A stretch of 64,000 nucleotides of DNA from Candidatus Poseidoniaceae archaeon (GTDB lineage Archaea; Thermoplasmatota; Poseidoniia; Poseidoniales; Poseidoniaceae), in NCBI GenBank assembly GCA_965659685.1, contig CBFHXB010000007.1:29314-93313 (forward strand), given 5' to 3'. Position 1 is the stretch's first letter, and each line of letters begins with the position of its first letter. Positions 12,889-61,281 of this stretch are shown piece by piece. The notes under the pieces are model-generated. The model did no database searches. It had not been told where the DNA came from and worked only from the letters and a program-made list of their open reading frames with translations. The position numbers and the translations under genes were made by a program.

Positions 12889-13079
12889 AAGATTCTGCTC
12901 AGAACCTCGGCGAACGGCCGACCTCAATTGGGGGCATATAAACCCCAAAATGGTCAGGTGAAAACAGTTTCATTTTCACCTCGGTGGGCAGGCTTATCAG
13001 GGGGACTCGGACTCAGGCGAGTCATGCTGTGCGTGTTCCCCGCCAATCCTCGGGAACATGTTCTGGAGGGGTGCTTCCA
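12889..13079. promoter_or_regulatory. orc1/cdc6 upstream region with TATAAA flanked by GGGG/CCCC and an 8-bp perfect inverted repeat (GGTGAAAA-N8-TTTTCACC); candidate promoter/ORB-like element
   Basis: Directly read: gggg-catataaa-cccc at 12931-12946; ggtgaaaa (12957-12964) / ttttcacc (12973-12980). Locally AT-richer than the genome. Confidence 0.3.
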
Positions 13080-22601: not shown

Positions 22602-22644
22602 GACCCGCCCAATGGAAGAGCGGTAATGAAGCAATCGCAGCGGC

Positions 22645-38077: not shown

Positions 38078-38956
38078 ATGTCCACCTACCAAGGTCCCAT
38101 CACGGACGACCACTTCCATCTGCGTCGTGACGGTCGGTGCCTGGCCGCAGCGGAAGATTTTGCTCGCGCGGGGGGCACTGACTTGGTGCTCGTTCATTGC
38201 CCCGATTTCGCCGCCCCTCCCACGGACGAGGCCGGTCACAAAGCGGCGTATGCAGACACGGTGGCGATGGCCGAAGAAGTTCGGGCCTCCGTTGGTCTTG
38301 GCGTCCGCGTGGTCCTCGGTCCTCATCCAGCGGCCTTCGCGCATCAATTCGAAGCGTGGACCGTCGAAGGCGAGACCGGTCGAAGTCGAGCCATCGAGTC
38401 CTACACGTCGAGCATCGACGCTGCCGTTTCGTTCATCGAAGAGGGCCAAGCCCATGCGGTGGGCGAGGTTGGACGGCCGCATTGGCCGGTGAGCGAGGAC
38501 ATTTGGGACCTCTCCAACGAACTCTTGGCGTGGACGATGCGTCGCGCTGGCCGGGAAGGCTTCGCGTTGCAATTGCACGTTGAAGGAGAGCAAGCTTCGA
38601 CCTACCCTGAACTCGCGGCCATGGCAGACCGAGAAGGGTGCCCGCGGGACCGTATCGTTCGTCATTACGCTCCGCCCGACGTGAGTGCTGCCTCCACGCA
38701 CGGTCTGATTCCGAGCGTGCTGTGCGGCAAGGGGTCCTTGCCGGTGCTGCTGGACACCATGGCCGATGCACGTCAAGGCTTCATGCTCGAGACCGATCAC
38801 ATGGACGACCCTGGGCGCCCTGGCGCGGTGTTGGGTCCCAAAACGGTTCCAAAGCGAACCCGACAACTCAGCGAGGCCGGGGTGGACGACGAGGTCCTTT
38901 ATCGGGCTCACGTGGATTTGCCCGAGCGCTTGTACGGACCCTCCATCAGGGCATGA
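38078..38956 (+). CDS. TatD-related metal-dependent hydrolase (TIM-barrel)
   Basis: N-terminal DDHFHL metal-binding motif and later His/Glu/Asp ligands typical of the TatD/amidohydrolase fold. Confidence 0.55.
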   Translation: MSTYQGPITDDHFHLRRDGRCLAAAEDFARAGGTDLVLVHCPDFAAPPTDEAGHKAAYADTVAMAEEVRASVGLGVRVVLGPHPAAFAHQFEAWTVEGETGRSRAIESYTSSIDAAVSFIEEGQAHAVGEVGRPHWPVSEDIWDLSNELLAWTMRRAGREGFALQLHVEGEQASTYPELAAMADREGCPRDRIVRHYAPPDVSAASTHGLIPSVLCGKGSLPVLLDTMADARQGFMLETDHMDDPGRPGAVLGPKTVPKRTRQLSEAGVDDEVLYRAHVDLPERLYGPSIRA

Positions 38957-39011
38957 TGCTGGGCCCTTCGGGGCGTCATCTTCATGTTTGACCCGCTTCA
39001 CCACCGACACG

Positions 39012-40106
39012 ATGACCCGCTCGTCACGCGCCGTTTTGGCCGTTGGACTGCTTCTGCTGTCCCTTCTGCTTGCGGCGGCACCGGGCGCCCAAGCCCAACT
39101 CGGCATCGGGGTGCAAATCGATTGCGACGAGGACCCCGAGCTCAACGTTCGTCCTTCTGAGAACGACGACGTCAAGATCACCTGCACGGTGAAGAACACT
39201 GGACAATTGGAGTCCACCGTCTCCGTGGACTACGAATGGCAGGAGGAGGATCCTCGCGTTGACATGTCGCTTTCCGAGGATGAATTCACCCTCGCGGCCG
39301 GTGCGGAAGAGGACTTTGAGGCCACCTTCTCTGGCTCCCCGAGGATCGAAGCAGACCTTTCGCTTGATTTCGACATCACCGCATCCATCTCCTCCGTGAT
39401 GGTGCTGCCCGTGGACCAACTCAACCAATCCGCGGTGTATTCTGGCGAATTGACCGTGGCCACCTTTGGCATGGTGGACCTGACCCTGACCGATCGATCG
39501 ACGCGCAACCTCGAGGTCAGCGAAGAGGTCAGCATCGGCTTCACCATGGGCAACGACGGCAATGCCGAGGACAAGATCGAAGTGAACATCGCAAACCTTG
39601 CTGAATTGGAATCCGCAGGATTCAGTTTCCCTGAAGGCAGTTTCGTGGCCGAGACGGTCATGGTCGAGGGCACATCTGCGGAACGGACGCTCGTGTTGCG
39701 CACCCCTTCCGATGTCACCGATGAAGTGCGCGTTCAGGTCGTGTTCGAGGCCACCAGCACCAACGACGCAACGGCTGAGCCGATGCAGTCCTCGGTCACC
39801 GTCGTGGTCAAGGCAGCCGCTTCGAATGCCGCGTTGGGTGGTGGGCTGGAAGAACTCAGCCAAGACCAAATCCAACTCTATGCCGCCATCGGAGGCGGTG
39901 TGGTGGTCTTCTTCCTGATGATCCTCGTCATCGGGCGTCTCGTGCGCCGATCCGGTGGACCTGAACTCGAGGACGTGACCGACATCGACGAGCCGACGAT
40001 GCCCGGCGCCATGCCCGCAGCGGCCCCCGTTGCCATGGCTGCTCCGGCCGACGAATTTGATGGCATGTTCGACGAACTCGACGAGTTCGATTTTGACGAC
40101 CTCTGA
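39012..40106 (+). CDS. Secreted acidic surface protein with signal peptide and C-terminal TM anchor plus acidic tail
   Basis: Signal MTRSSRAVLAVGLLLLSLLLAAAPGAQA. C-terminal VVVFFLMILVIGRLVRRSGG then DEFDGMFDELDEFDFDDL. Same topology as the giant protein. Confidence 0.6.
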   Translation: MTRSSRAVLAVGLLLLSLLLAAAPGAQAQLGIGVQIDCDEDPELNVRPSENDDVKITCTVKNTGQLESTVSVDYEWQEEDPRVDMSLSEDEFTLAAGAEEDFEATFSGSPRIEADLSLDFDITASISSVMVLPVDQLNQSAVYSGELTVATFGMVDLTLTDRSTRNLEVSEEVSIGFTMGNDGNAEDKIEVNIANLAELESAGFSFPEGSFVAETVMVEGTSAERTLVLRTPSDVTDEVRVQVVFEATSTNDATAEPMQSSVTVVVKAAASNAALGGGLEELSQDQIQLYAAIGGGVVVFFLMILVIGRLVRRSGGPELEDVTDIDEPTMPGAMPAAAPVAMAAPADEFDGMFDELDEFDFDDL

Positions 40107-40207
40107 CGGAAACTTCTGTTCGGGTCACAGCCCCACATTTTCGACCTCTGTTGAGGGGGAATGGTCAAAGGCCGGTGTGCCTGGCTACACCGATGGAGGG
40201 TGTGCGT

Positions 40208-40999
40208 ATGCTGGACCTCAAAGGAAAGACGGCCTTCGTGTTTGGAGTGGCGAGCGAAGATTCCATCGCTTGGGCCATCTGCCAACAACTCGCTGCGGCA
40301 GGCTGCACGCTCTACCTTGGCTACCAGAAGCGGTTCATGAGCCGGATTTTCAAGCTCAAGGACCAGTTGCCCTCCATTGGAGGATTCTACCCCCTGGACG
40401 TGGCAGAAGACGCGACCACCAAGGAATTCTTTGATGCGTTTTCCGCGGAACATCCCGGCAAGAAAGCGGACATCCTTGTCCACGCCATTGGCTTTGCACC
40501 TCGCACCTGTTTCGATCGCCCCATCCTCTTCGTCGAAGACGCCGACATCAACACCGCGATGACCATTTCTGCCAACAGCCTCCAGCGCTGCTTGAAGCAC
40601 GCCCTGCCCTACCTCTCCGAGGGCTCCTCGACCATCACGCTGACCTATGCGGCCTCCACCCGGCACGTCCCCTCTTACGGCATCATGAGCATGGCCAAGG
40701 CCGCGCTGGAGTGCTGGACGCGGGAACTCGCCTGCCACCTTGGCCCCGAGGGTCATCGCGTAAACGCCATCTCCTCGGGCCCCATCCGGACCATCGCGGC
40801 GTCGGGCATCCCCGGTTTTGACAACATCCTGGATCACGTGGCGTCAAATGCGCCACTGCGGCGCAACGTCACGCAATCCGACGTGGCGGGAACGACCCTT
40901 TGGTTGGCCAGCCCGCTGTCCGCTGGAGTGACGGGGCAGGTCATCCACGTGGATGCCGGCTATTCGATCACCATGGTTCCAGGAACCATCATGGAGTGA
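40208..40999 (+). CDS. fabI: Enoyl-[acyl-carrier-protein] reductase (NADH), FabI-type SDR
   Basis: FabI hallmarks: GVASEDSIAWAI N-terminus, Y…K active-site region (SYGIMSMAKAALE), SGPIRT motif. The stop lies 9 nt before the megasynthase ATG. Confidence 0.8.
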   Translation: MLDLKGKTAFVFGVASEDSIAWAICQQLAAAGCTLYLGYQKRFMSRIFKLKDQLPSIGGFYPLDVAEDATTKEFFDAFSAEHPGKKADILVHAIGFAPRTCFDRPILFVEDADINTAMTISANSLQRCLKHALPYLSEGSSTITLTYAASTRHVPSYGIMSMAKAALECWTRELACHLGPEGHRVNAISSGPIRTIAASGIPGFDNILDHVASNAPLRRNVTQSDVAGTTLWLASPLSAGVTGQVIHVDAGYSITMVPGTIME

Positions 41000-41008
41000 G
41001 GTGGGAAC

Positions 41009-44000
41009 ATGACGATCACCACAGCAGACGGCAAAGAAGTCGGAGGAACCGACCAAGGTCCCTTCGAACCGATCGCAATCATCGGATGCTCGGCGTTGAT
41101 GCCCGATGCTGAAGACACGGCATCGTTCTGGCAGAACATCATCGATGCCCACGTGAGCATCCGCGACCTCCCTGAGGGCCGATGGCCCGGTCCAGTGGAG
41201 CAGTTTTGGGCCGAGGGCGCACCGGGACAAGTCGTAGAGAACAGGACCTACGCCAAGATTGGCGCCTTTGTCGAAGGCTTCGAATTCAACTGGCGCCGCT
41301 GGCGGCAACCTCCCGGGACGCTCCCACAAATCGATCCGTGTCAACTCTGGGCGGTCGAAGTTGCGGCTTCGGCGTTGGAGCACGCAGGCTACGGGGACGA
41401 CGGTCGGCCATTGGACCGCAGCCGCGTGGGTGTGGTCTTTGCGAACGCGCTCGGCGGTGAAAATCGAAACGAATCCAATCAACGGGTGTGGGCCGAGCGC
41501 AACCGCGCCTTGGCCATTGAGGCCGGTTTGCCTGAAGCGTCCAGCGATGCGTTTGTTGCGGCCATGGTGGAGGGTGCTCCCAAAATCACAGAAGACACGA
41601 TGCCGGGAGAACTGGCCAACGTCGTGTCTGGCCGGGTGGCCAATCTGCTTGATTTGCAGGGTCCAAACCACGCGATGGACGCGGCATGTGCCTCTTCCCT
41701 TGCGGCCTTGCTCGATGCATGTCGGCTGCTTCACGCACGCCAAGTGGACGCCATGATTTGCGGTGCATCCGACCGCACCATGGACCCGGCGACCTACGCC
41801 AAGTTCAGCGCCATTGGTGCGCTGTCGCCCAGCCATTCCACGCCGTTCGACGCCCGTGCAAACGGCTTCGTGATGGGCGAAGGTGCTGGCGCGATGGTCC
41901 TGAAACGCCTCAGCGACGCGGTGCGGGACGAGGACGAAATATTCGCCGTCATCCGCGGGATTGGCGGCTCATCGGACGGCCGTGGAAAAGGCATCACCGC
42001 TCCTTCGCAGCGTGGTCAGATTCAGGCCATCGCACGCGCCTACAATCAGGCGGGATATGCGGCTTCGTCCGTCGAGTTGGTCGAAGCTCACGGGACCTCG
42101 ACGAAGGTCGGTGACGCCACAGAATTATCCACGTTGGGCACCTTGTGGACGGGACTTGGCGCCGGGGACCACGTTGCCGTGGGTTCCATCAAGAGCCAAA
42201 TCGGCCACCTGAAGGCGGCCGCAGGCATGGCGGGCTTGCTCAAGGTCACCATGGCCTTGCACCATGCCACCATCCCTCCGAGTGCAGGATTTGAAACGCC
42301 CAATCCTACGGTGGATTGGTCGACGAATCCCTTCTTCGTTCCAACCGAACCAATGGCGTGGCCCAAGCCAGACGGCCACCCACGCCGTGCCGGTGTGAGT
42401 GCCTTCGGCTTCGGGGGAACCAACTTCCACGTTGCCCTCGAAGCCTTCGATCCTGAACTCCACACCAGCATGGGCGCCACCTGGGCGTCGCGTTGGGACG
42501 CATTCACCGGCACGCCCTCCGCTCCCTCGGCAGCCTCCATCCTCGATGCATCGGCGACCCCTTCCCTCGATCATGCCGCCCTGAAGGCGATCGAAGGCGG
42601 TCTCCTGCTGCTGTCGGGCGACAGCGTCGAAGCCGTGTCGGGCCGACTTGCAGGTTTGTCCGTCTCTGGGCCAACCTTCGACGACGATGCTCGCGGCCAC
42701 CGTCTTTCCGCCGTGTTTGCGGATTGGTCGGCCTCCTTTGACCCCAAGGCTTCGGTTCGACTCGCTGTCGTGGCCACGTCGTGGGCCGAATTTGACAAGC
42801 GGAAGGGGTTGGCTGCCTCGTCGCTCGCTGACCCATCGCGTTGGGGCTTCTTGGCCGCTCAAGGCATCATGATCACAGACCAGCCGCCCATGCCGGCTCA
42901 AGCCAAAGTGGCCCACATGTACCCCGGCCAAGGCAGCCAATACGTCGGCATGACGCAAGACCTGTGGCAACGCTTCTCTGCGGTGCAGGACGTGTGGCGA
43001 CTCGCAGACGAGACCATGGTGGAAGTCCTCGACGGCGAAACGCTGTCCTCCTTCGTGTTGCGCAGCAACCTCAGCAAAGAGGAGATGAAAGACGCTGAGG
43101 AGAAACTGAAGCGCACCGAGTACACTCAGCCGGCGATGTTGACGGCCGATTTGGCCATCGAACGTGCGCTCAACGACCACGGCCTCAAGCCGGACATGGT
43201 TGCTGGACATTCCCTCGGTGAATATGCGGCCCTGATGTCGGCGGGCATCATGGACATGGACAGCGCCCTCCGTGCTGCTGCTGCACGTGGCACTGAGATG
43301 GGCTCCGTCGAGATCGACGATCAAGGCCTGATGGCCTCGGTCAGTGCCCCACTTGCGGACGTGGAGCGCATTCTGGAGGGGACCGACGGGTACGTCATTG
43401 CGGCCAACAAGAACTCGCCCAAGATGACGGTCATCGCCGGAGAAACGGCACCCGTCAAGGCCGCAATGGCCGCTTTTGAAGCCGAAAGCATGCCTTGCAC
43501 CGTCCTGCAAACCTCCCACGCCTTCCACTCCAAGATCGTCGCTCCGGCCAACGCGCCGCTGCGCGCCTTCCTCGAGGGATTGGACCTGCAATGGCCCTCG
43601 ATTCCGATCACGGCCAACGTTGACGGGACCTTCTACGCGATGGAGGGCGAGGACGCAAAGACGGCCGTCTTGGAGAAGCTCGCCGGGCAAATGGCCTCCG
43701 CTGTGGAGTGGACCGCCCAGATCGAAACGATGGCCGCCGCAGGTGCGGGAGCCTTCGTCGAAGTCGGGCCGAAGCGGGCGTTGACCGTGTTCGCGTCGCA
43801 GATCCTCGAAGACCGACCGCATCTTGCCGTGATGACCAACCACCCGAAGCAAGGTGGCATCGCCAGTTTCCTCTCCGCACTTGGGATGCTCGCGCTCGCA
43901 GGGCGCGTCCCCTCGCTCCCAAACGGTTCCAGCGACGTGTTGACCGAGGCCTTCCGCGCGGGTCCGACCGAAGCCTGGGCGTCGGCTTCGGCTCAACCGG

Positions 44001-47000
44001 TCCGCTCTTCCGAGGCGCACGAAGACCTTCGTACCCGAGCCCGCCCGTTGCCTTCCAACGGTGGGACCCCAGCCGTTGCGCAGGCCGTGACGACAACGGC
44101 GACGAAACCCGTCGATCCTGCCGAAGCCCTCGCCGCGTACGTCGGCGACCGTCTCGCGGCGTTGTGCGGCTACCCAGCCCGGTTCTGTCGTGGTGCCGTG
44201 GACCTTCGTCTCGGCCTTGGCATGACCGATGCAAGCGTGGCCAGCGTGGTCCAGCGCCTGCGCAGTGAGGCTTCCCTCGATCCAGACGTCGACATCGCTG
44301 GCGCCCAAACTCCAGCAGAGCTCGTTCGCGCCGTCCGAGCCCCACCCGCCGGTTGGATTCCGGCTGCTCCGGCCACGCGCCGCCCAATCACCACCACGGC
44401 CGTCACGAACGCCGTTCACGACCCGATGGCCGACCGGCGTGCCAATCCCTACGTGATCACCGGCGTTTCCTTGGGCTTGCCCGGAGGCGAACGCGTCTTC
44501 GACGAAGACGTGTTTGAGCGTCTCGTCCGCGGTGAAACTTGCATCGAAGAGGTGTCGGATGCGTACAAGCAGGCGCTGCTCGATCGAAACATCGTCCGGT
44601 TGGTCAAGGGTCGAGACGGCTCTGTGGACATGTCTCCGGCGGAAACCTTCGGCGACATCCCACAATTGGCTGGCGTTGCCCACGCGTTTGACCTCGCCGA
44701 AGAATTCGGCGTGGACCCCAAGGCCGTCCTCGCATGGGACATCACGACTCAACTCGCCGTGGCTTCTGGCCTTCTCGCCCTACGGGACGCCGCCATTCCA
44801 CTGACTCCCGAAGAGCAAGTGGGCAAAGGCGGACTCCGTCTCATTCGTGGATGGCAAGTCCCTCAACATCAGCGTGAGCGAACCGGCGTGGTCTTCGCGT
44901 CCTGCTTCCCCGGCACCACCGCTTCCTTTGCGCATGCACGGAACAACGGTGCAGACGCTGACGACGTGTTCGATCGACGCTTCCTGTTCCAAGTTCTGAA
45001 CATGGGCCATGCGCAATTCGCACAGCACACCGGCATCCGCGGACCAAATTCAACCATCAACGTCGCTTGCGCGTCCGCCACGGCTGCGTTTAGCATCGCT
45101 GAAGATTGGCTGGCCAACGACCGTGCAGACCGCGTGGTCATCATTTCCTCGGACAACGTGACCAGCCCAGAATTGTGGTCGTGGATCGGCGCAGGCTTCG
45201 CGGCCTCAGGAGCCGCGTCGTCCAGCAACGTGGTCGAAGAAGCCGCGCTGCCCTTCGACCGCCGCCGCAACGGCTTGATCCTCGGCATGGGGGCCGCCGC
45301 CTTCGTGGTGGAGCGGAACGCCGAAGCCGCAGAACGGGGCGTTCAGCCCTACGCAGAATTGCTCGGGACACGCATGGCCAATTCTGCTTTCCACGGCACC
45401 AGGCTTGACGTGGACCACGTGGCCCAAACCGTGGATGGATTCGTTGGTCAGATGGAGCGGACTTGGGGTCTTGACCGACACAGCATGGCGCCGAACACGG
45501 TGTTCTTCTCCCACGAGACCTACACGCCCGCCCGGGGCGGCTCCGCTCAATCCGAGGTCAAGGCCCTCCGGACCACCTTCGGTGAAAGCACGGACAAGAT
45601 CCTCATTGCGAACACGAAGGGCTTCACCGGCCACCCGATGGGCGTCGGCATCGAGGATGCCAGCATGATCCACGGCCTCCACCATCGCCGCTTCCCGCCC
45701 ATCGCCAACCACAAGGAAGTGGACCCCGAGTTGGGCAACCTCAACCTCAGCAAGGGCGGCAACATCGACGGCATCGAATACGGCATCCGTTTCGGGGCCG
45801 GTTTCGGTTCACAAATCGCCCTCTCCTTGGTCCGTCGGTGGCCTGTCGAAGGGGAACGCGTGAACGGCAAAGCCGTCCTGGCATGGAACCGCCGCTTGGC
45901 GGGGACCAACGACGTGCTGCTTCGTGTCCTTGACAACAAGTTGGTCGCTTACGTCGATGGAGAGAGCAACCTCCACGGTGGCGTTCAAGGTGACGAGTGG
46001 GGTCCAAGTGCGCCCTTCGAGGGGCTTGTTGACGAGCCTGAGGTCGCGCCTGCGCCCGCTCCTGCACCCACACCAACACCTGCGGCTCCTGCACCGGCGC
46101 CCAAGGCGGCTCCAATGGCCGTGGCCAGCGATGACGAGGTCACGGCGGCGATGATCGAGGTCGTCGTTGAGCACACCGGTTATCCGGCAGAATTCATCGA
46201 GATGGATCAAGACCTCGAGGGTGAACTCGGCATTGACACCGTCAAGCAAGCCGAGATTATGGCAGCCCTTCGCGATCGGTTTTCGCTCCCTGTTGACGAA
46301 GACTTCGTGCTTTCCGACCATCCAACGCTCAACCATATGCTCGCGTACCTGACGCGCATGCAAGGTGGCGAGGCGCCTGCCGTGGCAGCACCACGTGACG
46401 TGCCAGCACCCGCTCCGGCACCTGCTCCTGCCCCCGCGAAGACCGAGCCAGCACCCGCTCCGGCACCTGCTCCTGCCCCAGCGGCGGACGCCGGTGACCT
46501 TGTGGACACGGTGGTGGCCGTTGTGGTCGAACACACCGGCTACCCCGCGGACTTCATCGAATTGGACCAAGACCTCGAAGGCGAACTTGGCATTGACACC
46601 GTCAAGCAAGCCGAGATCATGGCGGACATTCGTGCTCGCTTCTCCCTGCCGATCGACGAGGATTTCCTCCTCTCCGACCACCCGACGTTGAACCACATGG
46701 TGGCCTACATTCAGCGCATGACCGGGGGAGATGCACCCGCACCTCCAGCGGCCGCCACAACGCCTGAACCTGCTGCCGCTCCGGCGTCTGCGCCGGCTCA
46801 AGAGCCGGAGGCTGCACCCCCCGCTCCTGCTCCGTCAGGCGACGACGGCTCCATCGCCGCTCGTCTCGTGGAGGTCGTGGTCAAGCACACGGGTTACCCA
46901 GAGGATTTCATTGAACTCGACCAAGACCTCGAAGGTGAACTTGGTATTGACACCGTCAAACAGGCGGAAATCATGGCGGACGTTCGCGCCATTTTCGATC

Positions 47001-49798
47001 TCCCCGTGGACGAAGACTTCCTTCTGTCCGACCACCCAACCCTCAACCACTTCGTCGGCTACGTGGCGAAATTTTCCTCTGGAGGAACGGCAGCGAGCTC
47101 GTCTTCCAAGGAGGATTCAGCGTCGGTCCAAACCCCGGCCCCGGCCTCCACGGTGCAAAAGGTGGCCGAAGGGTGCCGACGTTGGCAGGTGGAGATTGAG
47201 CCGTGCCCTGGCGAGGATGCTCCGCTCAGCCTCTCCGGGCGTGTCCTCGTCACCGAGGACGACTGGGGAATTTCCGTTGCGGTGGCCGAGGAATTGACCT
47301 CCAAAGGCTTCGACGTGGTTCACATCGGATTGGAGCCTGGTGCCAAATCGCACCGGATCCAAGAGGAGGGCGATCGCCTCGTTCACCGGGTTGATCCGGC
47401 ATCTTCCGAACAGATGGATGCCTTCGTCGAAGAACTCGGTGAAGGGCCCATTGCAGGCATGATTCATCTGGCGCCCTTGCGCTTGGCCAGCATGGCATGG
47501 GCGGAAGAATCCGGCCCAAGCCAACAGGTCGTGCTCTCAGGACAAGCATGGTTTGGCTTGCTGAAGGCCCTTGACCAGCGTCTGGGTGCTTTGGATGCCG
47601 GAATCGTTGCTTCGGTCAGCGCCATGGACGGCCGTCACGGAAACCGGGGTGACCGGTTCAACGCCTTGCAAGCCGCGGCCGCTGGCGTGACCAAATCCTA
47701 CGCGCATGAGCGCCCTTCCCTGCGCTGCCGTGCATACGACCTTCACCCTGATCTGCTGATGGACGCCTCGTCCACGGCGGCCCGTCTGGTGGACGACCTG
47801 ATGAACCTCGGTGGCGAGGTGGAAATCGGCCTCGATCGAGCGGGCGAGCGGTGGACCCTTGTCTGCTTTGCAGAGGACCTCGTCGAGGACCACAAGCCCT
47901 TGCTTGAGACCGACGTTTGGCTCGTGTCCGGTGGCGGTTCTGGCGTCACTGCAGCGGCCATCATCGGCGTCGCTGAAGCCTCAAAGGGCGCAGGAGCCTC
48001 CTTCCACCTGCTTGGTCGGACCCCGCTGATGGACCTCACCGAAGGCTGGCTTGAGCACGACGATGCGACCTTGGAAGCCGAGAAGATGGCCCTCCGAGAG
48101 CGCATGATCGAAGCTTCTGCTTCGGGGAAGGTCACGATGGTGGAATGGAACCGCGCGTGGGACCGAATGATGCGCTCCCGGGATGTGCAGCAGACCCTTG
48201 CCACCATCCAAGCGACGGGTAACCTCGCGCAATACCACGCTGTGGACGTCATGAACGCGAAATCCCTGACCAAACTTGGGGCAAACCTTGGTCACGCCAT
48301 CACCGGCGTGGTCCACGGAGCAGGACTTGAGGAAAGCAAACTGGTCGGCGACAAAACCCACGAGGCCTTCGATCGCGTGGTTCGCGTGAAGGTCGACGGA
48401 TGGGCGGCCTTGATGGGCGCTGTGGAAGCATCGGGTGTGCGTCACCCCGCCTTTGCGGCCTGCTTCACTTCGGTGGCTGGACGGTTCGGAAACGGCGGCC
48501 AAACGGATTACGCCGCGGCCAACTCTGTGCTCGACGCTGAGATGGCCCGGTTGACCGCAAGCGGTGCTTGCCGTGCCGTCGCCATCGGATGGACCGGATG
48601 GCGCGACGTCGGCATGGCGACGCGTGGTTCGATCGAAGCGGTGTTCGAAGCCGCGGGCATCGAAACCCTTCCCGTGGACGTCGGTGTGGAGTTGTTCGTG
48701 GGTGAAGCCCTAGCGGGCGGCAAGCGCCGTGTGCTCGGTTGCGGCAGCCTTGGCGCCATGGACACCTTCGACGCCTTCCGAGAAGCGCCTCTGAAATTGC
48801 CTCCAAGCATGGCAGGACTCATCGCCGACCCCCAGCGTTTCCCCTTCATCGACAAGGTGGTGGCCTTTGACCACGACGAGCGCATTGAAACGCAAACGAC
48901 GCTGTCAACGGAGTTGCACCCCTTCTTGGTCGACCACGCCATCGACGGTGTGCCGTATCATCCCGGTGTGATGGCGCTAGAGATGTTTGCACAGAACGCT
49001 CTGCTGCTCAAGCCTGAGACGGCTTTGGCGGGCTTCAAAGACGTCACCTTCGGCTTGCCGGTCAAGATCATGCGTGGGTCGATGACGGTTCGCGTTGAAG
49101 CGTCGGTGGAGTCCTCAAGCGACGGCTTGCACGAGGTGCAGTGCCGCTTGGTCTCAGACCTGATGTCGTCGACCGGCGAGGTGTTCGGGGAACGTGAGCA
49201 CCACCGTGCAGTGGTCCGTTTGGTGGACCAAGCCGAGGACTTGAGCGCCTTCTTTGAGGGTGAACTCGCATCGATGCCGGACACCGGTTTGGCTCCGGCT
49301 CCAGGCGATTTGCTTCACCACCCTTCGTTCATTTACCTCCGCTACTTCCACGGACCGCGCTTCCAAAGCCACGGTGGTGTGCTTCGTGGCGTTCAGCAGG
49401 GTGAATTCTTGGGTGTGGACGGGCTTGCCTTGATGCGGCATCAATTGCCCGCGAGCGACCAATTCGCCATCGAGTCTGAAGGCGAAACCGTGCTCCTGGA
49501 AGCCCTACCAATGCTGATCGAGGCCGGATTCCAGAACGCCGGTTTGGTCGCGATGGAATCCGAAGGGCTGAGCAGCCTGCCGGTCGGCATCGAATGGTCG
49601 ACCGTCCTGCGGGTGCCCGACGAAGGCGAATCCCTACGCATGCGCTCCCTGTGCACCGCCAAGGAAGACGGTGGAATCACCGTTCACGACGTGGTCATTT
49701 TCGGTGAAGAGGATGACCCAGTGCTGGCGCTGCGAGGATTGCGCCTCAAGGGCATGGCTCCCGTCCCCGAAGATCTGGCGGTCACCATCCAACGGTGA
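41009..49798 (+). CDS. Type I polyketide/PUFA-synthase-like megasynthase (2929 aa): KS - AT(malonyl) - ACP-like - KS - 3x tandem ACP - KR - DH
   Basis: Directly read motifs. KS1: GPNHAMDAACASSL (Cys227), EAHGTSTKVGD, GHLKAAAG. AT: GHSLGE (Ser735), HAFH. KS2: GPNSTINVACASA, KGFTGHPMGVG. Three ~75-aa repeats: EHTGYPxxFIExDQDLEGELGIDTVKQAEIM separated by Pro/Ala-rich linkers. KR: VSGGGSGVT Rossmann and YAAAN. PKS-type DH: LVDHAIDGVPYHPG. RBS GGAGTGAGGTGGG lies upstream of ATG 41009. Confidence 0.9.
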   Translation: MTITTADGKEVGGTDQGPFEPIAIIGCSALMPDAEDTASFWQNIIDAHVSIRDLPEGRWPGPVEQFWAEGAPGQVVENRTYAKIGAFVEGFEFNWRRWRQPPGTLPQIDPCQLWAVEVAASALEHAGYGDDGRPLDRSRVGVVFANALGGENRNESNQRVWAERNRALAIEAGLPEASSDAFVAAMVEGAPKITEDTMPGELANVVSGRVANLLDLQGPNHAMDAACASSLAALLDACRLLHARQVDAMICGASDRTMDPATYAKFSAIGALSPSHSTPFDARANGFVMGEGAGAMVLKRLSDAVRDEDEIFAVIRGIGGSSDGRGKGITAPSQRGQIQAIARAYNQAGYAASSVELVEAHGTSTKVGDATELSTLGTLWTGLGAGDHVAVGSIKSQIGHLKAAAGMAGLLKVTMALHHATIPPSAGFETPNPTVDWSTNPFFVPTEPMAWPKPDGHPRRAGVSAFGFGGTNFHVALEAFDPELHTSMGATWASRWDAFTGTPSAPSAASILDASATPSLDHAALKAIEGGLLLLSGDSVEAVSGRLAGLSVSGPTFDDDARGHRLSAVFADWSASFDPKASVRLAVVATSWAEFDKRKGLAASSLADPSRWGFLAAQGIMITDQPPMPAQAKVAHMYPGQGSQYVGMTQDLWQRFSAVQDVWRLADETMVEVLDGETLSSFVLRSNLSKEEMKDAEEKLKRTEYTQPAMLTADLAIERALNDHGLKPDMVAGHSLGEYAALMSAGIMDMDSALRAAAARGTEMGSVEIDDQGLMASVSAPLADVERILEGTDGYVIAANKNSPKMTVIAGETAPVKAAMAAFEAESMPCTVLQTSHAFHSKIVAPANAPLRAFLEGLDLQWPSIPITANVDGTFYAMEGEDAKTAVLEKLAGQMASAVEWTAQIETMAAAGAGAFVEVGPKRALTVFASQILEDRPHLAVMTNHPKQGGIASFLSALGMLALAGRVPSLPNGSSDVLTEAFRAGPTEAWASASAQPVRSSEAHEDLRTRARPLPSNGGTPAVAQAVTTTATKPVDPAEALAAYVGDRLAALCGYPARFCRGAVDLRLGLGMTDASVASVVQRLRSEASLDPDVDIAGAQTPAELVRAVRAPPAGWIPAAPATRRPITTTAVTNAVHDPMADRRANPYVITGVSLGLPGGERVFDEDVFERLVRGETCIEEVSDAYKQALLDRNIVRLVKGRDGSVDMSPAETFGDIPQLAGVAHAFDLAEEFGVDPKAVLAWDITTQLAVASGLLALRDAAIPLTPEEQVGKGGLRLIRGWQVPQHQRERTGVVFASCFPGTTASFAHARNNGADADDVFDRRFLFQVLNMGHAQFAQHTGIRGPNSTINVACASATAAFSIAEDWLANDRADRVVIISSDNVTSPELWSWIGAGFAASGAASSSNVVEEAALPFDRRRNGLILGMGAAAFVVERNAEAAERGVQPYAELLGTRMANSAFHGTRLDVDHVAQTVDGFVGQMERTWGLDRHSMAPNTVFFSHETYTPARGGSAQSEVKALRTTFGESTDKILIANTKGFTGHPMGVGIEDASMIHGLHHRRFPPIANHKEVDPELGNLNLSKGGNIDGIEYGIRFGAGFGSQIALSLVRRWPVEGERVNGKAVLAWNRRLAGTNDVLLRVLDNKLVAYVDGESNLHGGVQGDEWGPSAPFEGLVDEPEVAPAPAPAPTPTPAAPAPAPKAAPMAVASDDEVTAAMIEVVVEHTGYPAEFIEMDQDLEGELGIDTVKQAEIMAALRDRFSLPVDEDFVLSDHPTLNHMLAYLTRMQGGEAPAVAAPRDVPAPAPAPAPAPAKTEPAPAPAPAPAPAADAGDLVDTVVAVVVEHTGYPADFIELDQDLEGELGIDTVKQAEIMADIRARFSLPIDEDFLLSDHPTLNHMVAYIQRMTGGDAPAPPAAATTPEPAAAPASAPAQEPEAAPPAPAPSGDDGSIAARLVEVVVKHTGYPEDFIELDQDLEGELGIDTVKQAEIMADVRAIFDLPVDEDFLLSDHPTLNHFVGYVAKFSSGGTAASSSSKEDSASVQTPAPASTVQKVAEGCRRWQVEIEPCPGEDAPLSLSGRVLVTEDDWGISVAVAEELTSKGFDVVHIGLEPGAKSHRIQEEGDRLVHRVDPASSEQMDAFVEELGEGPIAGMIHLAPLRLASMAWAEESGPSQQVVLSGQAWFGLLKALDQRLGALDAGIVASVSAMDGRHGNRGDRFNALQAAAAGVTKSYAHERPSLRCRAYDLHPDLLMDASSTAARLVDDLMNLGGEVEIGLDRAGERWTLVCFAEDLVEDHKPLLETDVWLVSGGGSGVTAAAIIGVAEASKGAGASFHLLGRTPLMDLTEGWLEHDDATLEAEKMALRERMIEASASGKVTMVEWNRAWDRMMRSRDVQQTLATIQATGNLAQYHAVDVMNAKSLTKLGANLGHAITGVVHGAGLEESKLVGDKTHEAFDRVVRVKVDGWAALMGAVEASGVRHPAFAACFTSVAGRFGNGGQTDYAAANSVLDAEMARLTASGACRAVAIGWTGWRDVGMATRGSIEAVFEAAGIETLPVDVGVELFVGEALAGGKRRVLGCGSLGAMDTFDAFREAPLKLPPSMAGLIADPQRFPFIDKVVAFDHDERIETQTTLSTELHPFLVDHAIDGVPYHPGVMALEMFAQNALLLKPETALAGFKDVTFGLPVKIMRGSMTVRVEASVESSSDGLHEVQCRLVSDLMSSTGEVFGEREHHRAVVRLVDQAEDLSAFFEGELASMPDTGLAPAPGDLLHHPSFIYLRYFHGPRFQSHGGVLRGVQQGEFLGVDGLALMRHQLPASDQFAIESEGETVLLEALPMLIEAGFQNAGLVAMESEGLSSLPVGIEWSTVLRVPDEGESLRMRSLCTAKEDGGITVHDVVIFGEEDDPVLALRGLRLKGMAPVPEDLAVTIQR
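41066..42442 (+). other. Ketosynthase domain 1 (KS1) of megasynthase; active-site Cys codon TGT at 41687-41689
   Basis: Motifs listed above; ends with AFGFGGTNFHVALE. Confidence 0.85.
42914..43813 (+). other. Acyltransferase domain (malonyl-CoA specific); Ser codon TCC at 43211-43213
   Basis: GQGSQ…GHSLGE…HAFH; approximate borders. Confidence 0.8.
44111..44338 (+). other. ACP-like helical domain between AT and KS2 (LGLGMTDASVASVVQRL)
   Basis: Resembles the PKS ACP LGxDSLxAVEL core with a DAS motif; assignment tentative. Confidence 0.35.
44450..45838 (+). other. Ketosynthase domain 2 (KS2), retains Cys and both His motifs
   Basis: YVITGVSLGLPGG start, INVACASATAAF, FFSHETYTP, KGFTGHPMGVG, GAGFGSQIALSL end. 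Confidence 0.75.
46130..47068 (+). repeat. Three tandem ~340-bp direct repeats encoding ACP domains (46130-46354, 46502-46717, 46847-47068), each with Thr (ACC) at the canonical Ser position of the LGID(S) motif
   Basis: Nucleotide repeats ~85-90% identical. Thr codons read at 46238-46240, 46598-46600 and 46952-46954. Confidence 0.85.
47906..48613 (+). other. Ketoreductase domain (SDR); catalytic Tyr codon TAC at 48509-48511
   Basis: VSGGGSGVTAAAIIG…YAAAN. Confidence 0.75.
48821..49795 (+). other. PKS-type dehydratase (double hotdog) domain
   Basis: HxxxGxxxxP motif LVDHAIDGVPYHPG in the first hotdog half. Confidence 0.65.
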
Positions 49799-50580
49799 TG
49801 CCGATGGAACGTGTCGTGCCGGAGTGGTCCGGCCTCGGGGTGCCGGTTCACCTCGTCCACCTTGCTCCGCTTCCGGCAACCCTTCCCGGACAGGACGATG
49901 GGTTGCCAGCCTTGGTGGATCCCGAGGAGTGGTCCACGTTCAAGACCGATAAACGACGTGTGGAGCATCTGGGGGGGCGTCTTCTTTTGGCGGCCTCGAT
50001 GGACGCTTGGTGGCGCATGCACCGCTTCCTTGGACGCGTGGATGAACTGGACGTGGTCCGGGATGCACATCGCGCTCCATACTTGCGTTGGCGCTCAGGC
50101 GTGTGGAGGCAGGCGCCGCTTCCTGGTCTCTCCATCGGTCACAGTGAAGGGCGTGCTGTGGTCGGTTTGGTGGCACCCGGTTGGAGCATCGGCGTCGACG
50201 CTGAACCCGCCGACCGCCGCATCGCCGAGGGCGCATGGGACATGTTTGCCTCTGCGGAGGAACGGGCCTCCTTTGACGGGAACCCGAAGGCTGCATTGCG
50301 GGCTTGGGTGACCAAGGAGGCCGTTCAGAAGGCCTTGGGCTTGGGCATGCACCTGAATCCTCGGCACATCGTTCCGGACGGCAACCGTTTCGTTCACGAC
50401 GGGGCCACGGTGGACCTCAGTTGGTTGGAGTCAGACGGGATGCTTGTTTGCGTGGCCTTGGCTCCGGGTCGTGCACCGCCGTCAACGCCAGAGGACGCCG
50501 TCCTGGAAGCGACGAAGGCGGCGATGGACGAGGACCCAGCGTGGGGCGTGGGGTGCAAAACCACACGGAACTTGTGTTGA
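49798..50580 (+). CDS. 4'-phosphopantetheinyl transferase (Sfp/EntD type)
   Basis: GVDAE…WVTKEAVQKALG motifs. ATG 49798-49800 overlaps the megasynthase TGA (TGATG), indicating translational coupling. Confidence 0.75.
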   Translation: MPMERVVPEWSGLGVPVHLVHLAPLPATLPGQDDGLPALVDPEEWSTFKTDKRRVEHLGGRLLLAASMDAWWRMHRFLGRVDELDVVRDAHRAPYLRWRSGVWRQAPLPGLSIGHSEGRAVVGLVAPGWSIGVDAEPADRRIAEGAWDMFASAEERASFDGNPKAALRAWVTKEAVQKALGLGMHLNPRHIVPDGNRFVHDGATVDLSWLESDGMLVCVALAPGRAPPSTPEDAVLEATKAAMDEDPAWGVGCKTTRNLC

Positions 50581-52107: not shown

Positions 52108-52179
52108 GCGGATATGGTGAAGTGGTTATCATCTGAGGTTTCCAACCTTATGTCGTGGGTTCGACTCCCGCTATCCGCA
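52108..52179 (+). tRNA. tRNA-Gly (anticodon TCC)
   Basis: Manually folded cloverleaf. Acceptor stem GCGGATA/TATCCGC, anticodon stem TGAGG/CCTTA with loop TTTCCAA (TCC), T-arm GGGTTCGACTCCC, discriminator A. No encoded CCA. Confidence 0.85.
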
Positions 52180-52193
52180 CTCAGCCTTGCAGT

Positions 52194-52216: not shown

Positions 52217-55200
52217 CTACTGCGGTGGCCGTTGGTTTAGGCCAGGAATGCCTTGTGGTGGCGGTGGAGTTGACGACACTGGAGGGGCCGTTCTCCGGCG
52301 CTCCAACAAGGCCATGGCGAGGGCTTCACGCTCTTCCTGCCAGCGGGTCCGGATGCGCCGTCCTCGCACGAGCATCCCGAGGAGCAAGACGATGAGCAAG
52401 ACTTGTCCGAGGGCCACTTGACCACGTTCGTCGTCGACCCACCATGACACATCGGTCCACGCGGTTTGGGTGGGTGCATCGACCTCCAACAACCGGCTGT
52501 CGATGACCTCGACCTTCAGCGTCACGTCGTCCATGGCAGCGTTGCTGCCGGGTTCGAGCACCGTGATCACCAGATCGATCGGCACGGTGCGGGCCACTTC
52601 CGTTTGGAACCAGAGGGTTGCGTTCTCCGCTTCTGGCGTGATGACCACGGTTTGGGAGCGCGCTCCTCCGAAGAGATCGGCTCCGCCGTCCCACGTGACG
52701 CGTGCGGTCACTGGAACTTGCATCTCATGGGTGACCGTGCATGTGAAGGCAAACTTCGGCCCAACGGCGAGGTCGACCACGGGGTCCACCAGTTCACAGG
52801 CCAGGCTGGCTTCGGCGATGTTCCGAGTGGCATCTTGCGGCCAGTGGTCGGGCGATTCGGCGCCGAGGGCGTTGTTATCACCGTATCCGTCGCCGTCGCT
52901 GTCCACGTGCTGTGTCGGAAGGTCTGGGAAGGCGTCTTCGGTGTCGGCCCATCCGTCCTCGTCGCGGTCCACGCACCCAAGGACGCCCGCTTGACTGGAC
53001 GCACCGGCCTCGTTCGGGCAGTCGTCAGACACGGCGGTTCCTGTTTGGTCCGCAAAGCCGTCCCCGTCTTGGTCCGACCAAACCGAACCGTCAGAAGGCC
53101 ACGGGTCGTTTTCGTCGCTCTGACCGTCGCCGTCGCTGTCAGGGCATCCGTAGCGGTCGAGGGTCGAGGTCCCGGACGTGCCAGGGCAGGCATCGGGTTG
53201 TTCCCCGGACGCCAGGTCGCCGTAGCCGTCGTCGTCCGAATCGCCAATCTGCGTGGGATCGTTCGGGAATTCATCACCCTCATCCGACGCTCCGTCTCCG
53301 TCGCTGTCCGGGCAACCGAAGCGGTCGTAGGTGGACGCGCCGGCCACCGTTGGGCAGGCATCGGGCTGCTCGCCGCTGGCGTTGTCGCCGTATCCGTCGC
53401 CGTCTTGGTCCGCGAATTGAGTGGGATCGTTCGGGAAGGGGTCGGCGCCGGCGTCAAGCCGGACTTCGCCGATGCCGTTCTCGCCGGCTTGGGCGTCGGC
53501 GACACCGTCGCCGTCAGCATCAGGGCAACCGGTCACCGGGCTGGTTGAGGTTCCGGCCAAGGCGGGGCAACCGTCGCTTGGGTCGTCGATTCCGTCGCCG
53601 TCGGTGTCCGCGGTTCGGCTTGGATCATTCGGGAAGGCGTCCCCTAGATCTGAGACGCCATCGCCGTCAGCGTCGGGGCATCCGTAGCGGTCAACGGTCG
53701 AGGTTCCGGATGCTCCGGGGCAGGCATCAGGTTGGGGACCTGTGGCGTTGTCGCCGTACCCGTCACCGTCTTGATCCGACCACTGCGAAGGCAGGTTTGG
53801 GAGCACGTCAATGGCGTCGTCCCACCCGTCACCGTCCGTATCTGGGCAACCATAACGGTTGGCTGCGGTGGAGTTTCCTGGCACGCTCGGGCAAGCGTCG
53901 GGCATGGTGCCGCCGGAGTTGTCGAAGTAACCGTCGCCGTCCGAATCGGCCCATTGGGTCCCGTCGTTGGGTGCTTGGTCTTCAGCGTTCGACCATCCGT
54001 CACCGTCCGTGTCTGGGCAACCAAGCGTCCCGTTCTGCCATGACGCGCCCGCTTCCGTGGGGCAGGCGTCCGGAAGGGTTCCGGTGGCGTTGTCGCCGTA
54101 CCCGTCTCCGTCCTGATCGACCCACTGGGTCCCGTCCATGACGAATGCATCGGCCCCGTCCGCGACGGTCCACACGCCGTCGGGATCCGACCAACCGTCG
54201 CTGTCCCTGTCTGGACATCCCTGCCGGTCCATGGAGGAGGTTCCTGCCGCGTTCGGGCAGGCGTCGTCGATGGTGTCGTCGTATCCGTCGCCATCGGTGT
54301 CCGCCCATCGCGATGCATCGCTTGGGAAGGCGTCAGCTCCGTCGAGCAAGGTCCAGCCTGCATCCTCATCGGAGTATCCGTCGCCGTCGGTGTCTGGGCA
54401 ACCCGAGCGGTCAACGGTTGACGTTCCCGTGACGCCTGGGCATGCGTCTCCTGAGGTGCCTGACGGGTTATCGCCGAATCCATCGTTGTCTGCGTCCACC
54501 CATTGGGTGGCATCGGACGGCCATTGGTCGGCTCCTTGGGCCACCGTCCAGCCGCTGTCCGCATCCGAGTAGCCGTCTCCGTCGGTGTCGGGGCATCCAA
54601 GCCTGTCGTTGGACGATGTTCCTGCCGTGCTGGGACAGCCGTCAGGATTGACGCCGGCGGAGTTGTCGCCGTACCCGTCCAGATCGCTGTCGGCCCATTG
54701 GGTCGATTCGTAGGGGAAGGAATCGTCAACATCAGCCCAGCCGTCTCCGTCGCTGTCGGGACATCCCAAACGGTTGGCTTCGGTTGAGGTCCCGGGCACG
54801 GTTGGACAAGCGTCGGGTTGTGTTCCGGTGGCGTTGTCGCCGTATCCGTCTCCGTCCTGATCGGCCCATTGTGTTCCGTCGTTTGGGAAAGCATCAGCGC
54901 CTTCAGCGGTTCCAAATCCGGCGTCTGGATCAGAATAGGTGTCGCCGTCTGTGTCCGGGCAACCGAGCCGGTCCGCCGACGAGTCACCGAACTGGCTTGG
55001 GCAACCGTCTGGGTCGGTTGCTGGGGCAGGATTGTCTCCGAAACCGTCACCGTCGCTGTCGGACCACTGGGTGGCGTCCCCGAGGAAAGCGTCCGCTCCG
55101 TCACCGACGACCCACGCGCTGCCGTTCGAGGCATCTGAGCCCGTTGGGTCCGGATCCGATGCGCCGTCGCCGTCCTCGTCGGCACACCCGTTCCGGTCCC

Positions 55201-57799: not shown

Positions 57800-57915
57800 G
57801 GCGTTTGGTTGTGCTGAACCCTCATCAAGCATTGGTTGAATCTGAAGGGTTGAACACGAGCGTTGAAAGGCCATTCCCAGAACGGAAGCCCATGCGTGGC
57901 CGGGGCGGTGGGGAC

Positions 57916-61168: not shown

Positions 61169-61281
61169 GTTCTGCCGTGGTGGTTCCCCTCTTAGAATTG
61201 CGGCTCACTTCGCAGGACTCCGCCCCTGCGTCCGGTGATGTTCATAAGCCGTCGAAGGAGCAAGGCAAATCAGGTCATAGC

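What the first reader, a model, noticed from the sequence alone, without database searches (positions are those of the whole stretch)
46130..47068. All three tandem ACP domains carry Thr instead of the canonical phosphopantetheine-acceptor Ser (ELGIDTVKQAEIM)
In PUFA-synthase and PKS ACPs the conserved motif is LGID-S-(I/V)K…EI, with Ser as the 4'-phosphopantetheine attachment site. Here the aligned position is Thr (codon ACC) in every repeat, at 46238-46240, 46598-46600 and 46952-46954. Conservation across three diverged copies (~85-90% nt identity) argues for selection rather than decay. One possibility is that the cognate PPTase (49798-50580) modifies Thr, which would be a non-canonical carrier-protein chemistry. 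Alternatively these are non-canonical carrier or scaffold domains, and the single ACP-like domain with a DAS motif (44111-44338) is the true carrier.
Basis: seen in the sequence. Interest (0 to 1): 0.8.

Follow-up and report, generated by a model that had tools for sequence, protein, structure and literature searches.

The report
Carrier domains with threonine attachment site
A fatty-acid/polyketide-type megasynthase in a marine archaeon has threonine where all textbook acyl carrier proteins have the cofactor-bearing serine, and this is the conserved hallmark of a large, uncharacterised enzyme family that almost always travels with its own cofactor-attaching enzyme.

Summary
All three tandem ACP domains of the 2929-aa synthase (41009-49798) read ELGIDTVKQAEIM, with ACC codons at 46238, 46598 and 46952. 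HMM alignments and an AlphaFold model place the Thr on the canonical Ser position at the N-terminus of helix II.

It is a family trait, not a local oddity. The window is from a Marine Group II archaeon. The operon FabI / KS-AT-KS-ACP3-KR-DH / PPTase matches the uncharacterised 'Type R secondary lipid synthase' of Shulse & Allen (2011). About 40 MGII species genomes and many bacterial phyla carry it, always with ...LG[IV]DTVKQAE....

- At the acceptor column of the nearest ACP relatives I found 396 Thr, 208 Ser, 1 Ala and 1 Asp.
- Thr and Ser swap between close orthologues.
- dN/dS between the three copies is about 0.1.
- All catalytic residues of the synthase are invariant.
- An intact Sfp-type PPTase is adjacent or fused in 63 of 66 loci.
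- No other carrier domain exists in the window.

Best reading (about 0.75): Thr is the real phosphopantetheine acceptor, installed by the dedicated PPTase. No modification was measured here. I found no paper describing this, and E. coli AcpP S36T is the standard non-modifiable mutant. The 'DAS' domain is not a carrier.

The parts
40151..40999 (+). FabI-like enoyl-ACP reductase, acting in trans. First gene of the operon; it ends 9 nt before the synthase start.
   Evidence: Pfam adh_short_C2 at 235.6 bits. NCBIfam FabI models reach E 2.6e-67 but stay below their cut-offs. Found upstream of the synthase in the MGII loci whose fetched DNA reaches that far. Junction sequence.
41009..49798 (+). 2929-aa iterative type I FAS/PKS-like megasynthase: KS1-AT-(pseudo-ACP)-KS2-ACP x3-KR-DH.
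   Evidence: TIGR02813 PfaA scores 868 bits, below its 1010 cut-off.
41066..42454 (+). KS1 domain, active-site Cys227.
   Evidence: Pfam ketoacyl-synt, Ketoacyl-synt_C and KAsynt_C_assoc. The Cys is present in 62 of 63 loci; the other reads X, a masked base.
42917..43813 (+). Acyltransferase with GHSLG active site and the malonyl-type HAFH motif.
   Evidence: Pfam Acyl_transf_1. Ser735 and the HAFH His are invariant in 66 loci.
44141..44320 (+). Not a carrier.
   Evidence: No Pfam or NCBIfam hit. i-Evalue 1.2 against the ACP profile. No conserved Ser or Thr in orthologues.
44426..46048 (+). KS2, called 'CLF' in the Type R description. It keeps Cys1354, His1502 and His1542.
   Evidence: Second ketoacyl-synt stretch. 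Cys is invariant in 70 of 70 loci and both His in 72 of 72.
46139..46363 (+). ACP1. Acceptor-position Thr at 46238-46240 (ACC).
   Evidence: PF00550 at 37.4 bits.
46499..46723 (+). ACP2. Acceptor-position Thr at 46598-46600 (ACC).
   Evidence: PF00550 at 42.5 bits. AF2 pLDDT 93.7 with helix II starting at the Thr. Foldseek matches to holo-ACPs.
46853..47077 (+). ACP3. Acceptor-position Thr at 46952-46954 (ACC).
   Evidence: PF00550 at 35.5 bits.
48173..48607 (+). Ketoreductase catalytic subdomain, Tyr2501.
   Evidence: Pfam KR. The Tyr is invariant in 71 loci.
48848..49795 (+). PKS-type dehydratase with HxxxGxxxxP, His2643.
   Evidence: Pfam PKS_DH_N. The His is invariant in 70 loci.
49795..50580 (+). 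Sfp-type 4'-phosphopantetheinyl transferase. Its start overlaps the synthase stop codon, suggesting translational coupling.
   Evidence: Pfam ACPS at 37.9 bits against a cut-off of 25. A profile of 21 homologues hits human AASDHPPT (3e-11) and Sfp, including 4mrt (4e-10). The equivalents of Sfp H90, D107, E109, W147, K150/E151 and K155 are conserved. Overlap shown.

Best explanation
The three domains are working acyl carrier domains of an iterative FAS/PKS-like 'Type R secondary lipid synthase'. In this family the 4'-phosphopantetheine arm is attached to the hydroxyl of Thr instead of Ser.

Proposed steps:
1. The operon-encoded Sfp-type PPTase transfers phosphopantetheine from CoA to Thr1744, Thr1864 and Thr1982 (inferred).
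2. The AT loads malonyl units onto the holo-ACPs (inferred).
3. KS1/KS2, KR, DH and the trans FabI elongate and reduce an acyl chain on the three equivalent carriers (inferred from intact active sites).

Thr may make the carriers substrates only for their dedicated PPTase, which would explain why that enzyme is almost always adjacent or fused. This last point is speculative. The product is unknown.
For: Position:
- The Thr sits on the Ser of solved ACPs and at the N-terminus of helix II in a confident model.

The hydroxyl is what is conserved:
- In an exhaustive search of 1.84 billion representatives, the acceptor column of the 146 best proteins holds 396 T, 208 S, 1 A and 1 D.
- No other column in 724 T-type domains has more than 25% Ser.

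Thr and Ser interchange between orthologues:
- MGII relatives P0096, P0129-131 and P0146 have GxDS in otherwise the same motif and are nearest neighbours of T-type MGII ACPs.
- The S-type locus L080 has the same arrangement of PPTase directly downstream of the synthase. Its Ser codon TCG is one step from ACG.
- Local compensation is visible: T-V 383, S-I 202, T-I 13, S-V 5.

Selection:
- dN/dS is 0.08-0.12 between the three copies.
- All four Thr codons are used across orthologues.

The machinery that needs a thiol carrier is intact:
- The KS1 Cys, KS2 Cys-His-His, AT Ser and HAFH, KR Tyr and DH His are invariant in every readable case across 62-72 loci.

Dedicated PPTase:
- One is present within 10 kb in 28 of 28 MGII loci and 35 of 38 non-MGII loci with enough flanking sequence (29 on the same strand, 6 on the opposite strand).
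- It is fused in frame to the synthase C-terminus in L043, L051 and L071, whose only detected ACPs are T-type.
- Its catalytic residues are intact and it belongs to the Sfp/AASDHPPT group.

No alternative carrier:
- The three T-ACPs are the only significant ACP-like sequences in the 64 kb window.
Against: - No biochemical evidence was obtained or found. No tool here can detect the modification.
- In E. coli, AcpP S36T is not phosphopantetheinylated and cannot support growth (PMC3340395). It is still used as the apo control (PMC13343975). At least AcpS-type enzymes therefore reject Thr.
- I found no feature in the linked PPTases that would explain Thr acceptance.
- Archaea have been proposed to make fatty acids without ACP. 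This statement rests on my own recollection of the literature and was not checked here.
- The Pfam and PROSITE definitions assume Ser.
Confidence: 0.75

Rival explanations
1. The T-type domains are unmodified pseudo-carriers acting as scaffolds, spacers or docking modules. The synthase would work on CoA-bound substrates or on a separately encoded Ser-type ACP.
For: - E. coli AcpP S36T is not modified.
- Archaeal fatty-acid synthesis has been proposed to be ACP-independent (my recollection, not checked here).
- The genome outside the 64 kb window could not be searched for a stand-alone ACP.
Against: - A scaffold has no need to keep a hydroxyl, yet the column is 604 of 606 Thr or Ser, with Thr/Ser swaps between orthologues.
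- The acceptor motif is more conserved in T-type than in S-type domains: V98, K99 and Q99 percent.
- A dedicated or fused PPTase accompanies 63 of 66 loci and would have no substrate.
- No other ACP is present in the window.
- Tandem multiplicity is the known throughput device of PUFA-type carriers (PMC3098273).
Confidence: 0.12
2. Thr carries a different group, or is acylated directly as an oxoester, rather than bearing a phosphopantetheine arm.
For: Only that the chemistry is untested. A secondary alcohol is a poorer nucleophile for phosphoryl transfer.
Against: - The linked enzyme is a canonical Sfp-type PPTase with the Mg2+/CoA-binding and catalytic residues.
- The KS, KR and DH active sites are the standard thioester-processing ones.
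- No other candidate modifying enzyme is conserved in the operon.
Confidence: 0.06
3. The Thr is a sequencing or assembly artefact, or the ACPs are decaying in a pseudogene.
For: None.
Against: - Three independent ACC codons sit in an uninterrupted 8.8 kb ORF.
- The same residue is found in hundreds of independent assemblies using all four Thr codons.
- dN/dS is about 0.1.
Confidence: 0.01

Closest known systems
'Type R' secondary lipid synthase clusters (Shulse & Allen 2011, PMC3098273)
   Same: - One pfaA-like gene, KS-MAT-'CLF'-ACP(3-6)-KR, followed by a PPTase gene.
- The PPTase has the P1b' motif hShxH; here it reads LSIGH.
- Found in Acidobacteria, Elusimicrobia and Chloroflexi, phyla that also hold T-type loci in my scan.
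- The product is uncharacterised.
   Different: - The paper does not mention serine, threonine or archaea.
- Here the host is a Marine Group II archaeon.
- A FabI gene precedes the synthase and a DH domain follows the KR.
- The 'CLF' keeps Cys-His-His.
- I did not place the KS in a tree with the paper's reference sequences.
Tandem ACP domains of PUFA synthase PfaA (TIGR02813; motif LGIDSIKRVEIL)
   Same: - Same fold and the same tandem 'beads' with Ala/Pro linkers.
- The surrounding motif is shared: TGYP...DLEADLGID-x-[IV]K..E.
- The best NCBIfam match of each ACP is the ACP region of PfaA.
   Different: - The acceptor is Thr rather than Ser, followed by V-K-Q rather than I-K-R/K.
- The whole protein scores below the PfaA cut-off (868 against 1010 bits).
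- An extra KS lies between the AT and the ACPs.
- There are no PfaB, PfaC or PfaD partners.
E. coli AcpP S36T (laboratory mutant)
   Same: The same substitution at the same structural position.
   Different: In E. coli it abolishes modification by AcpS and is lethal as the only copy (PMC3340395). Here Thr is the naturally selected state, paired with an Sfp-type rather than an AcpS-type PPTase.
Enediyne PKSE-type iterative PKS (KS-AT-ACP-KR-DH-PPTase). This comparison is from my own knowledge and was not tested here.
   Same: An iterative PUFA-like type I synthase with a self-contained PPTase. The Bradymonadia/Myxococcales T-type synthases L043, L051 and L071 also carry a C-terminal PPTase domain.
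   Different: PKSE has a single Ser-type ACP and no second KS. No sequence comparison was made here.

Membership tests
Acyl carrier / PP-binding domain (Pfam PF00550) | Profile match above the gathering score. | tested here: met
   ACP1, ACP2 and ACP3 score 37.4, 42.5 and 35.5 bits against a cut-off of 20.8.
Acyl carrier / PP-binding domain (Pfam PF00550) | ACP helical-bundle fold with the acceptor at the N-terminus of helix II. | tested here: met
   AF2 pLDDT 93.7; helix II spans residues 36-50 and starts at Thr36. Foldseek TM 0.79-0.87 to holo-ACPs.
Acyl carrier / PP-binding domain (Pfam PF00550) | Conserved Ser as the phosphopantetheine acceptor (D-S motif; PROSITE PS00012 as I recall it). 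| tested here: not met
   Thr is aligned to the Ser of 2koo, 7bvc and 5y08. There is no conserved Ser elsewhere in 724 T-type domains.
Acyl carrier / PP-binding domain (Pfam PF00550) | The domain is actually phosphopantetheinylated (holo form). | not testable with these tools
   Needs mass spectrometry of protein co-expressed with the PPTase.
PUFA synthase PfaA (NCBIfam TIGR02813) | Whole-protein score above the curated cut-off. | tested here: not met
   868.4 bits against a cut-off of 1010.1.
PUFA synthase PfaA (NCBIfam TIGR02813) | KS-MAT-ACPn-KR(-DH) order, with PfaB, PfaC and PfaD partners. | tested here: not met
   An extra KS lies between the AT and the ACPs. The neighbours are FabI and a PPTase only.
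Type R secondary lipid synthase (Shulse & Allen 2011) | A single pfaA homologue, KS-MAT-CLF-ACP(3-6)-KR, followed by a PPTase gene. | tested here: met
   Domain order; PPTase directly downstream; description. Caveat: the 'CLF' retains the catalytic Cys.
Type R secondary lipid synthase (Shulse & Allen 2011) | The PPTase has the P1b' motif hShxH rather than (F/S)NxSH. | tested here: met
   The window PPTase reads LSIGH; motif definition.
Type R secondary lipid synthase (Shulse & Allen 2011) | The proximal KS groups phylogenetically with the reference Type R sequences (Koribacter, Solibacter, Elusimicrobium, Roseiflexus). | not tested
   The reference sequences could not be fetched. The only support is indirect: homologues with the same architecture occur in the same phyla.
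Sfp-type (group II) phosphopantetheinyl transferase | ACPS superfamily match plus the Sfp/AASDHPPT two-lobe alignment. | tested here: met
   PF01648 at 37.9 bits against a cut-off of 25. The profile hits 2cg5 (3e-11) and 1qr0/4mrt (4e-10) over profile positions 5-162.
Sfp-type (group II) phosphopantetheinyl transferase | Catalytic and Mg2+ residues equivalent to Sfp H90, D107, E109, E151 and K155. | tested here: met
   Conserved in the alignable T-linked PPTases; H, D, E, W, K-E and K are invariant columns in A2.

The most novel reading that the evidence does not exclude
A widespread natural class of carrier proteins uses O-(4'-phosphopantetheinyl)-threonine instead of the supposedly universal serine linkage. 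A co-evolved Sfp-type PPTase serves it and is orthogonal to housekeeping AcpS. In Marine Group II archaea this machinery forms an ACP-dependent, bacterial-type fatty-acyl megasynthase. That would bear on the proposed mixed or bacterial-like membrane lipids of these abundant uncultured archaea.
Probability: 0.6. Interest if true: 0.8.

Novelty: new variant of a known kind. Interest (0 to 1): 0.68.

Why it matters
**Carrier-protein chemistry.** The Ser acceptor of carrier proteins is treated as invariant. It is built into the motif definitions, and Ser-to-Thr is used as a null mutation in E. coli. A large, strongly selected family with Thr would add a second natural acceptor residue. It would imply PPTases with Thr competence, which could be useful as an orthogonal labelling or activation pair. 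It would also warn annotation pipelines and engineers that GxDT carriers are not dead.

**Archaeal lipids.** The host context adds a second point. A complete FAS-like operon with carrier domains and its own PPTase is conserved across Poseidoniales. MGII MAGs are reported to lack the enzyme that makes the archaeal glycerol-phosphate backbone and to carry a bacterial-type G3P dehydrogenase (PMC6461757). That makes the question of acyl lipids in these archaea directly testable.

Tried and rejected
- The search for homologous proteins with the full 2929-aa protein failed internally but still counted against the cap. I used the 1100-aa KS2-ACP-KR segment instead.
- An exact look-up of the window PPTase found nothing on record.
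- phmmer of the PPTase alone against the PDB gave only spurious pseudouridine-synthase hits. A profile of 21 homologues resolved this.
- The single-sequence AF2 model of the PPTase was unusable, at pLDDT 36.8. No fold search was run on it.
- Tandem Repeats Finder sees only the Ala/Pro linker micro-repeats, because the ACP copies are too diverged.
- The listing of cluster members gave no organism names.
- Literature searches found nothing for the motif (DTVKQ, LGIDTV and similar), for 'phosphopantetheinylation of threonine' phrases, or for MGII plus PKS/ACP.
- Villanueva 2017 and a PMC id that I guessed for a PPTase review are not held.
- I considered and rejected the 'DAS' domain as the true carrier.
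- I considered and rejected recent horizontal transfer judged by composition: GC is uniform at 0.60-0.64 across the window.
- I looked for a PPTase sequence feature specific to Thr-type partners and found none.
Full report
**Observation**

The ORF 41009-49798 (+) encodes a 2929-aa protein. Pfam finds KS, AT, a second KS, three PP-binding stretches, KR and a PKS-type DH.

The three PP-binding domains lie at 46139-46363, 46499-46723 and 46853-47077. Each contains ELGIDTVKQAEIM, with the Thr codon ACC at 46238, 46598 and 46952. Each domain passes PF00550 on its own, at 35.5-42.5 bits against a cut-off of 20.8.

The register is not in doubt:
- phmmer alignments to solved ACPs place the Thr on the modified Ser of the S. 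coelicolor FAS ACP, AcpM and both PigH ACPs.
- An AlphaFold2 model of ACP2 (pLDDT 93.7) starts helix II at the Thr.
- That model superposes on holo-ACP structures at TM 0.79-0.87.

The cores are 70-73% identical, synonymous sites are nearly saturated, and dN/dS is 0.08-0.12. Each copy is therefore under strong purifying selection.

**Origin of the window**

The window encodes Cdc6/Orc1, PCNA and an archaeal-type PPAT-DUF359 fusion. Its closest relatives are contigs of Candidatus Poseidoniales, the Marine Group II (MGII) archaea. L001 and L002 are 96% identical over ACP2 and about 90% over the rest of the synthase. GC is uniform at 0.60-0.64, so the operon is not a recent insertion.

**The system**

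- FabI (40151-40999) ends 9 nt before the synthase.
- The start of an Sfp-type PPTase (49795-50580) overlaps the synthase stop codon.
- This three-gene arrangement recurs in about 30 of the roughly 40 MGII species genomes recovered. The others are cut by contig ends.
- The domain order and the downstream PPTase match the 'Type R secondary lipid synthase' of Shulse & Allen (2011): KS-MAT-CLF-ACP(3-6)-KR plus PPTase, found in Acidobacteria, Elusimicrobia and Chloroflexi, with product unknown.
- The PPTase carries the P1b' motif hShxH assigned to that type.
- That paper contains neither 'serine' nor 'threonine' nor 'archaea'.

**The Thr is a family trait**

- Of 58 acceptor motifs found in 62 MGII ACP fragments, 57 have GIDT.
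- All MGII orthologues carry two to four T-type ACPs. Bacterial homologues at about 40-45% identity carry four to six, reading LEADLG[IV]DTVKQAE[MVL]FA.
- An exhaustive HMMER search of 1.84 billion cluster representatives gave 4569 hits. Among the best 146 proteins, 101 are all-Thr, 40 are all-Ser (classical PUFA-type GIDSIKRVEIL and a GIDSIKKAQLFG group) and 5 are mixed. At the acceptor column there are 396 T, 208 S, 1 A and 1 D.
The loci kept come from MGII, another Thermoplasmatota lineage, Myxococcota/Bradymonadia, Actinomycetota (including cultured Amycolatopsis and Nonomuraea rosea), Chloroflexota, Acidobacteriota, Elusimicrobiota and Leptospiraceae.

**Evidence that Thr is the functional acceptor**

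1. Only hydroxyl residues are tolerated at the site. No other column of 724 T-type domains has more than 25% Ser.
2. Thr and Ser exchange between close orthologues. MGII proteins P0096, P0129-131 and P0146 have GxDS in the same motif. With the site masked, their nearest neighbours are T-type MGII ACPs. A masked NJ tree of 250 proteins needs only about six changes. The S-type locus L080 has the same arrangement of PPTase directly downstream of the synthase. Its TCG codons are one step from ACG.
3. The next residue co-varies: T-V 383, S-I 202, T-I 13 and S-V 5. P0096 is an S-V intermediate. This looks like steric compensation for the Thr gamma-methyl.
4. Across MGII, Thr is encoded by all four codons.
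5. The catalytic residues that act on carrier-bound thioesters are invariant in every readable case across 62-72 loci. These are the KS1 Cys, KS2 Cys-His-His, AT GHSLG and HAFH, KR Tyr and DH His.
6. A PPTase lies within 10 kb in 28 of 28 MGII loci and 35 of 38 non-MGII T-type loci with enough flank. It is fused in frame to the synthase in L043, L051 and L071, whose only detected ACPs are T-type.
7. These PPTases keep the equivalents of Sfp H90, D107, E109, W147, K150/E151 and K155. As a profile they match human AASDHPPT and Sfp.
8. The three T-ACPs are the only significant ACP-like sequences in the 64 kb window.

**The 'DAS' domain**

The segment at about 44141-44320 has no Pfam or NCBIfam hit. 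It scores insignificantly against a PUFA-ACP profile. No Ser or Thr is conserved in it across 34 orthologues: the 'S' of DAS is K, T, Q and other residues elsewhere, and the closest orthologue reads LGLDDAKV. It is not the carrier.

**What remains unproven**

Nothing here measures the modification. The main counter-argument is experimental. E. coli AcpP S36T is not phosphopantetheinylated and cannot replace acpP (PMC3340395), and it is still used as the apo control (PMC13343975). That concerns AcpS, a different PPTase class from the Sfp-type enzymes linked to this family.

I could not identify a sequence feature of the linked PPTases that explains Thr acceptance. Full-text searches for the motif and for phrases describing threonine phosphopantetheinylation returned nothing. 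Key MGII genomics papers do not mention the synthase. The searchable library is incomplete, so an existing report cannot be excluded.

**Verdict**

The feature is not specific to this window. It is the previously unremarked hallmark of the Type R family, here in an archaeal host. I classify it as a new variant of a known kind, with interest 0.68. It contradicts a textbook invariant, is widespread and strongly selected, and can be tested with one co-expression and mass-spectrometry experiment. It is still only inferred from sequence.

Noticed in passing
window 40151-50580; loci L001-L038, L041, L057: A complete bacterial-style iterative FAS/PKS operon (FabI, KS-AT-KS-ACP3-KR-DH, PPTase) is conserved in about 40 Marine Group II archaeal species genomes. 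The MGII genomics papers I could read do not mention it. It may bear on the proposed non-canonical membrane lipids of this group.
   Followed up: partly
window 44426-46048 (KS2): The domain called 'CLF' in the Type R description keeps the full Cys-His-His triad in 70-72 loci. It is probably a second active ketosynthase rather than a chain-length factor.
   Followed up: partly
window 44141-44320: An ACP-like remnant lies between the AT and KS2. It has no profile hit and no conserved hydroxyl residue. Its role is unknown; it may be a linker or docking element.
   Followed up: partly
L043:2264-13879, L051:1-5664, L071:3-5807: In Bradymonadia and Myxococcales the PPTase is fused in frame to the C-terminus of the T-type synthase. 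L043 is a 3872-aa two-module protein with three T-type ACPs.
   Followed up: partly
L080 (JGI 3300047360), proteins P0096, P0129-131, P0146: A minority MGII lineage (P0146 is named Thalassarchaeaceae) has Ser at the acceptor in the same motif. P0096 is an S-V intermediate. In L080 the synthase and PPTase lie next to ETF and acyl-CoA dehydrogenase genes.
   Followed up: partly
L074 (Thermoplasmatota archaeon EX4484-6): A second archaeal lineage outside Poseidoniales carries a T-type synthase. Its ACP identity to the window is 47%, similar to the bacterial homologues.
   Followed up: no
window 16067-17089 (-): A fusion of a cytidylyltransferase-like (PPAT) domain with DUF359. I recall DUF359 as the archaeal dephospho-CoA kinase, which would make this the last two steps of CoA synthesis in one gene.
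   Followed up: no
window 4556-5722 (-) and 21735-22634 (-): 3-hydroxyacyl-CoA dehydrogenase and enoyl-CoA hydratase (beta-oxidation) lie in the same window as the synthase. An aldehyde dehydrogenase is at 784-2694.
   Followed up: no
window 30900-36737 (+), 38766-40106 (+), 52217-57874 (-): Three large ORFs: a 1945-aa ORF with no Pfam or NCBIfam hit, a 'choice-of-anchor T' protein just upstream of FabI, and a 1885-aa subtilase. These are probably large secreted or surface proteins.
   Followed up: no
window 12984-14321 (+), 61081-62022 (+), 52108-52180 (+): Cdc6/Orc1 and PCNA genes are present, so a replication origin may be near the Cdc6 gene. The only tRNA is tRNA-Gly(TCC).
   Followed up: no
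L081 and other bacterial T-type loci: In a bacterial MAG the T-type synthase is split into KS-AT, KS-ACP4-KR and DH genes plus a PPTase. Acetyl-CoA carboxylase, ETF and acyl-CoA dehydrogenase genes lie upstream, echoing the ACC linkage noted for Koribacter in Shulse & Allen.
   Followed up: no
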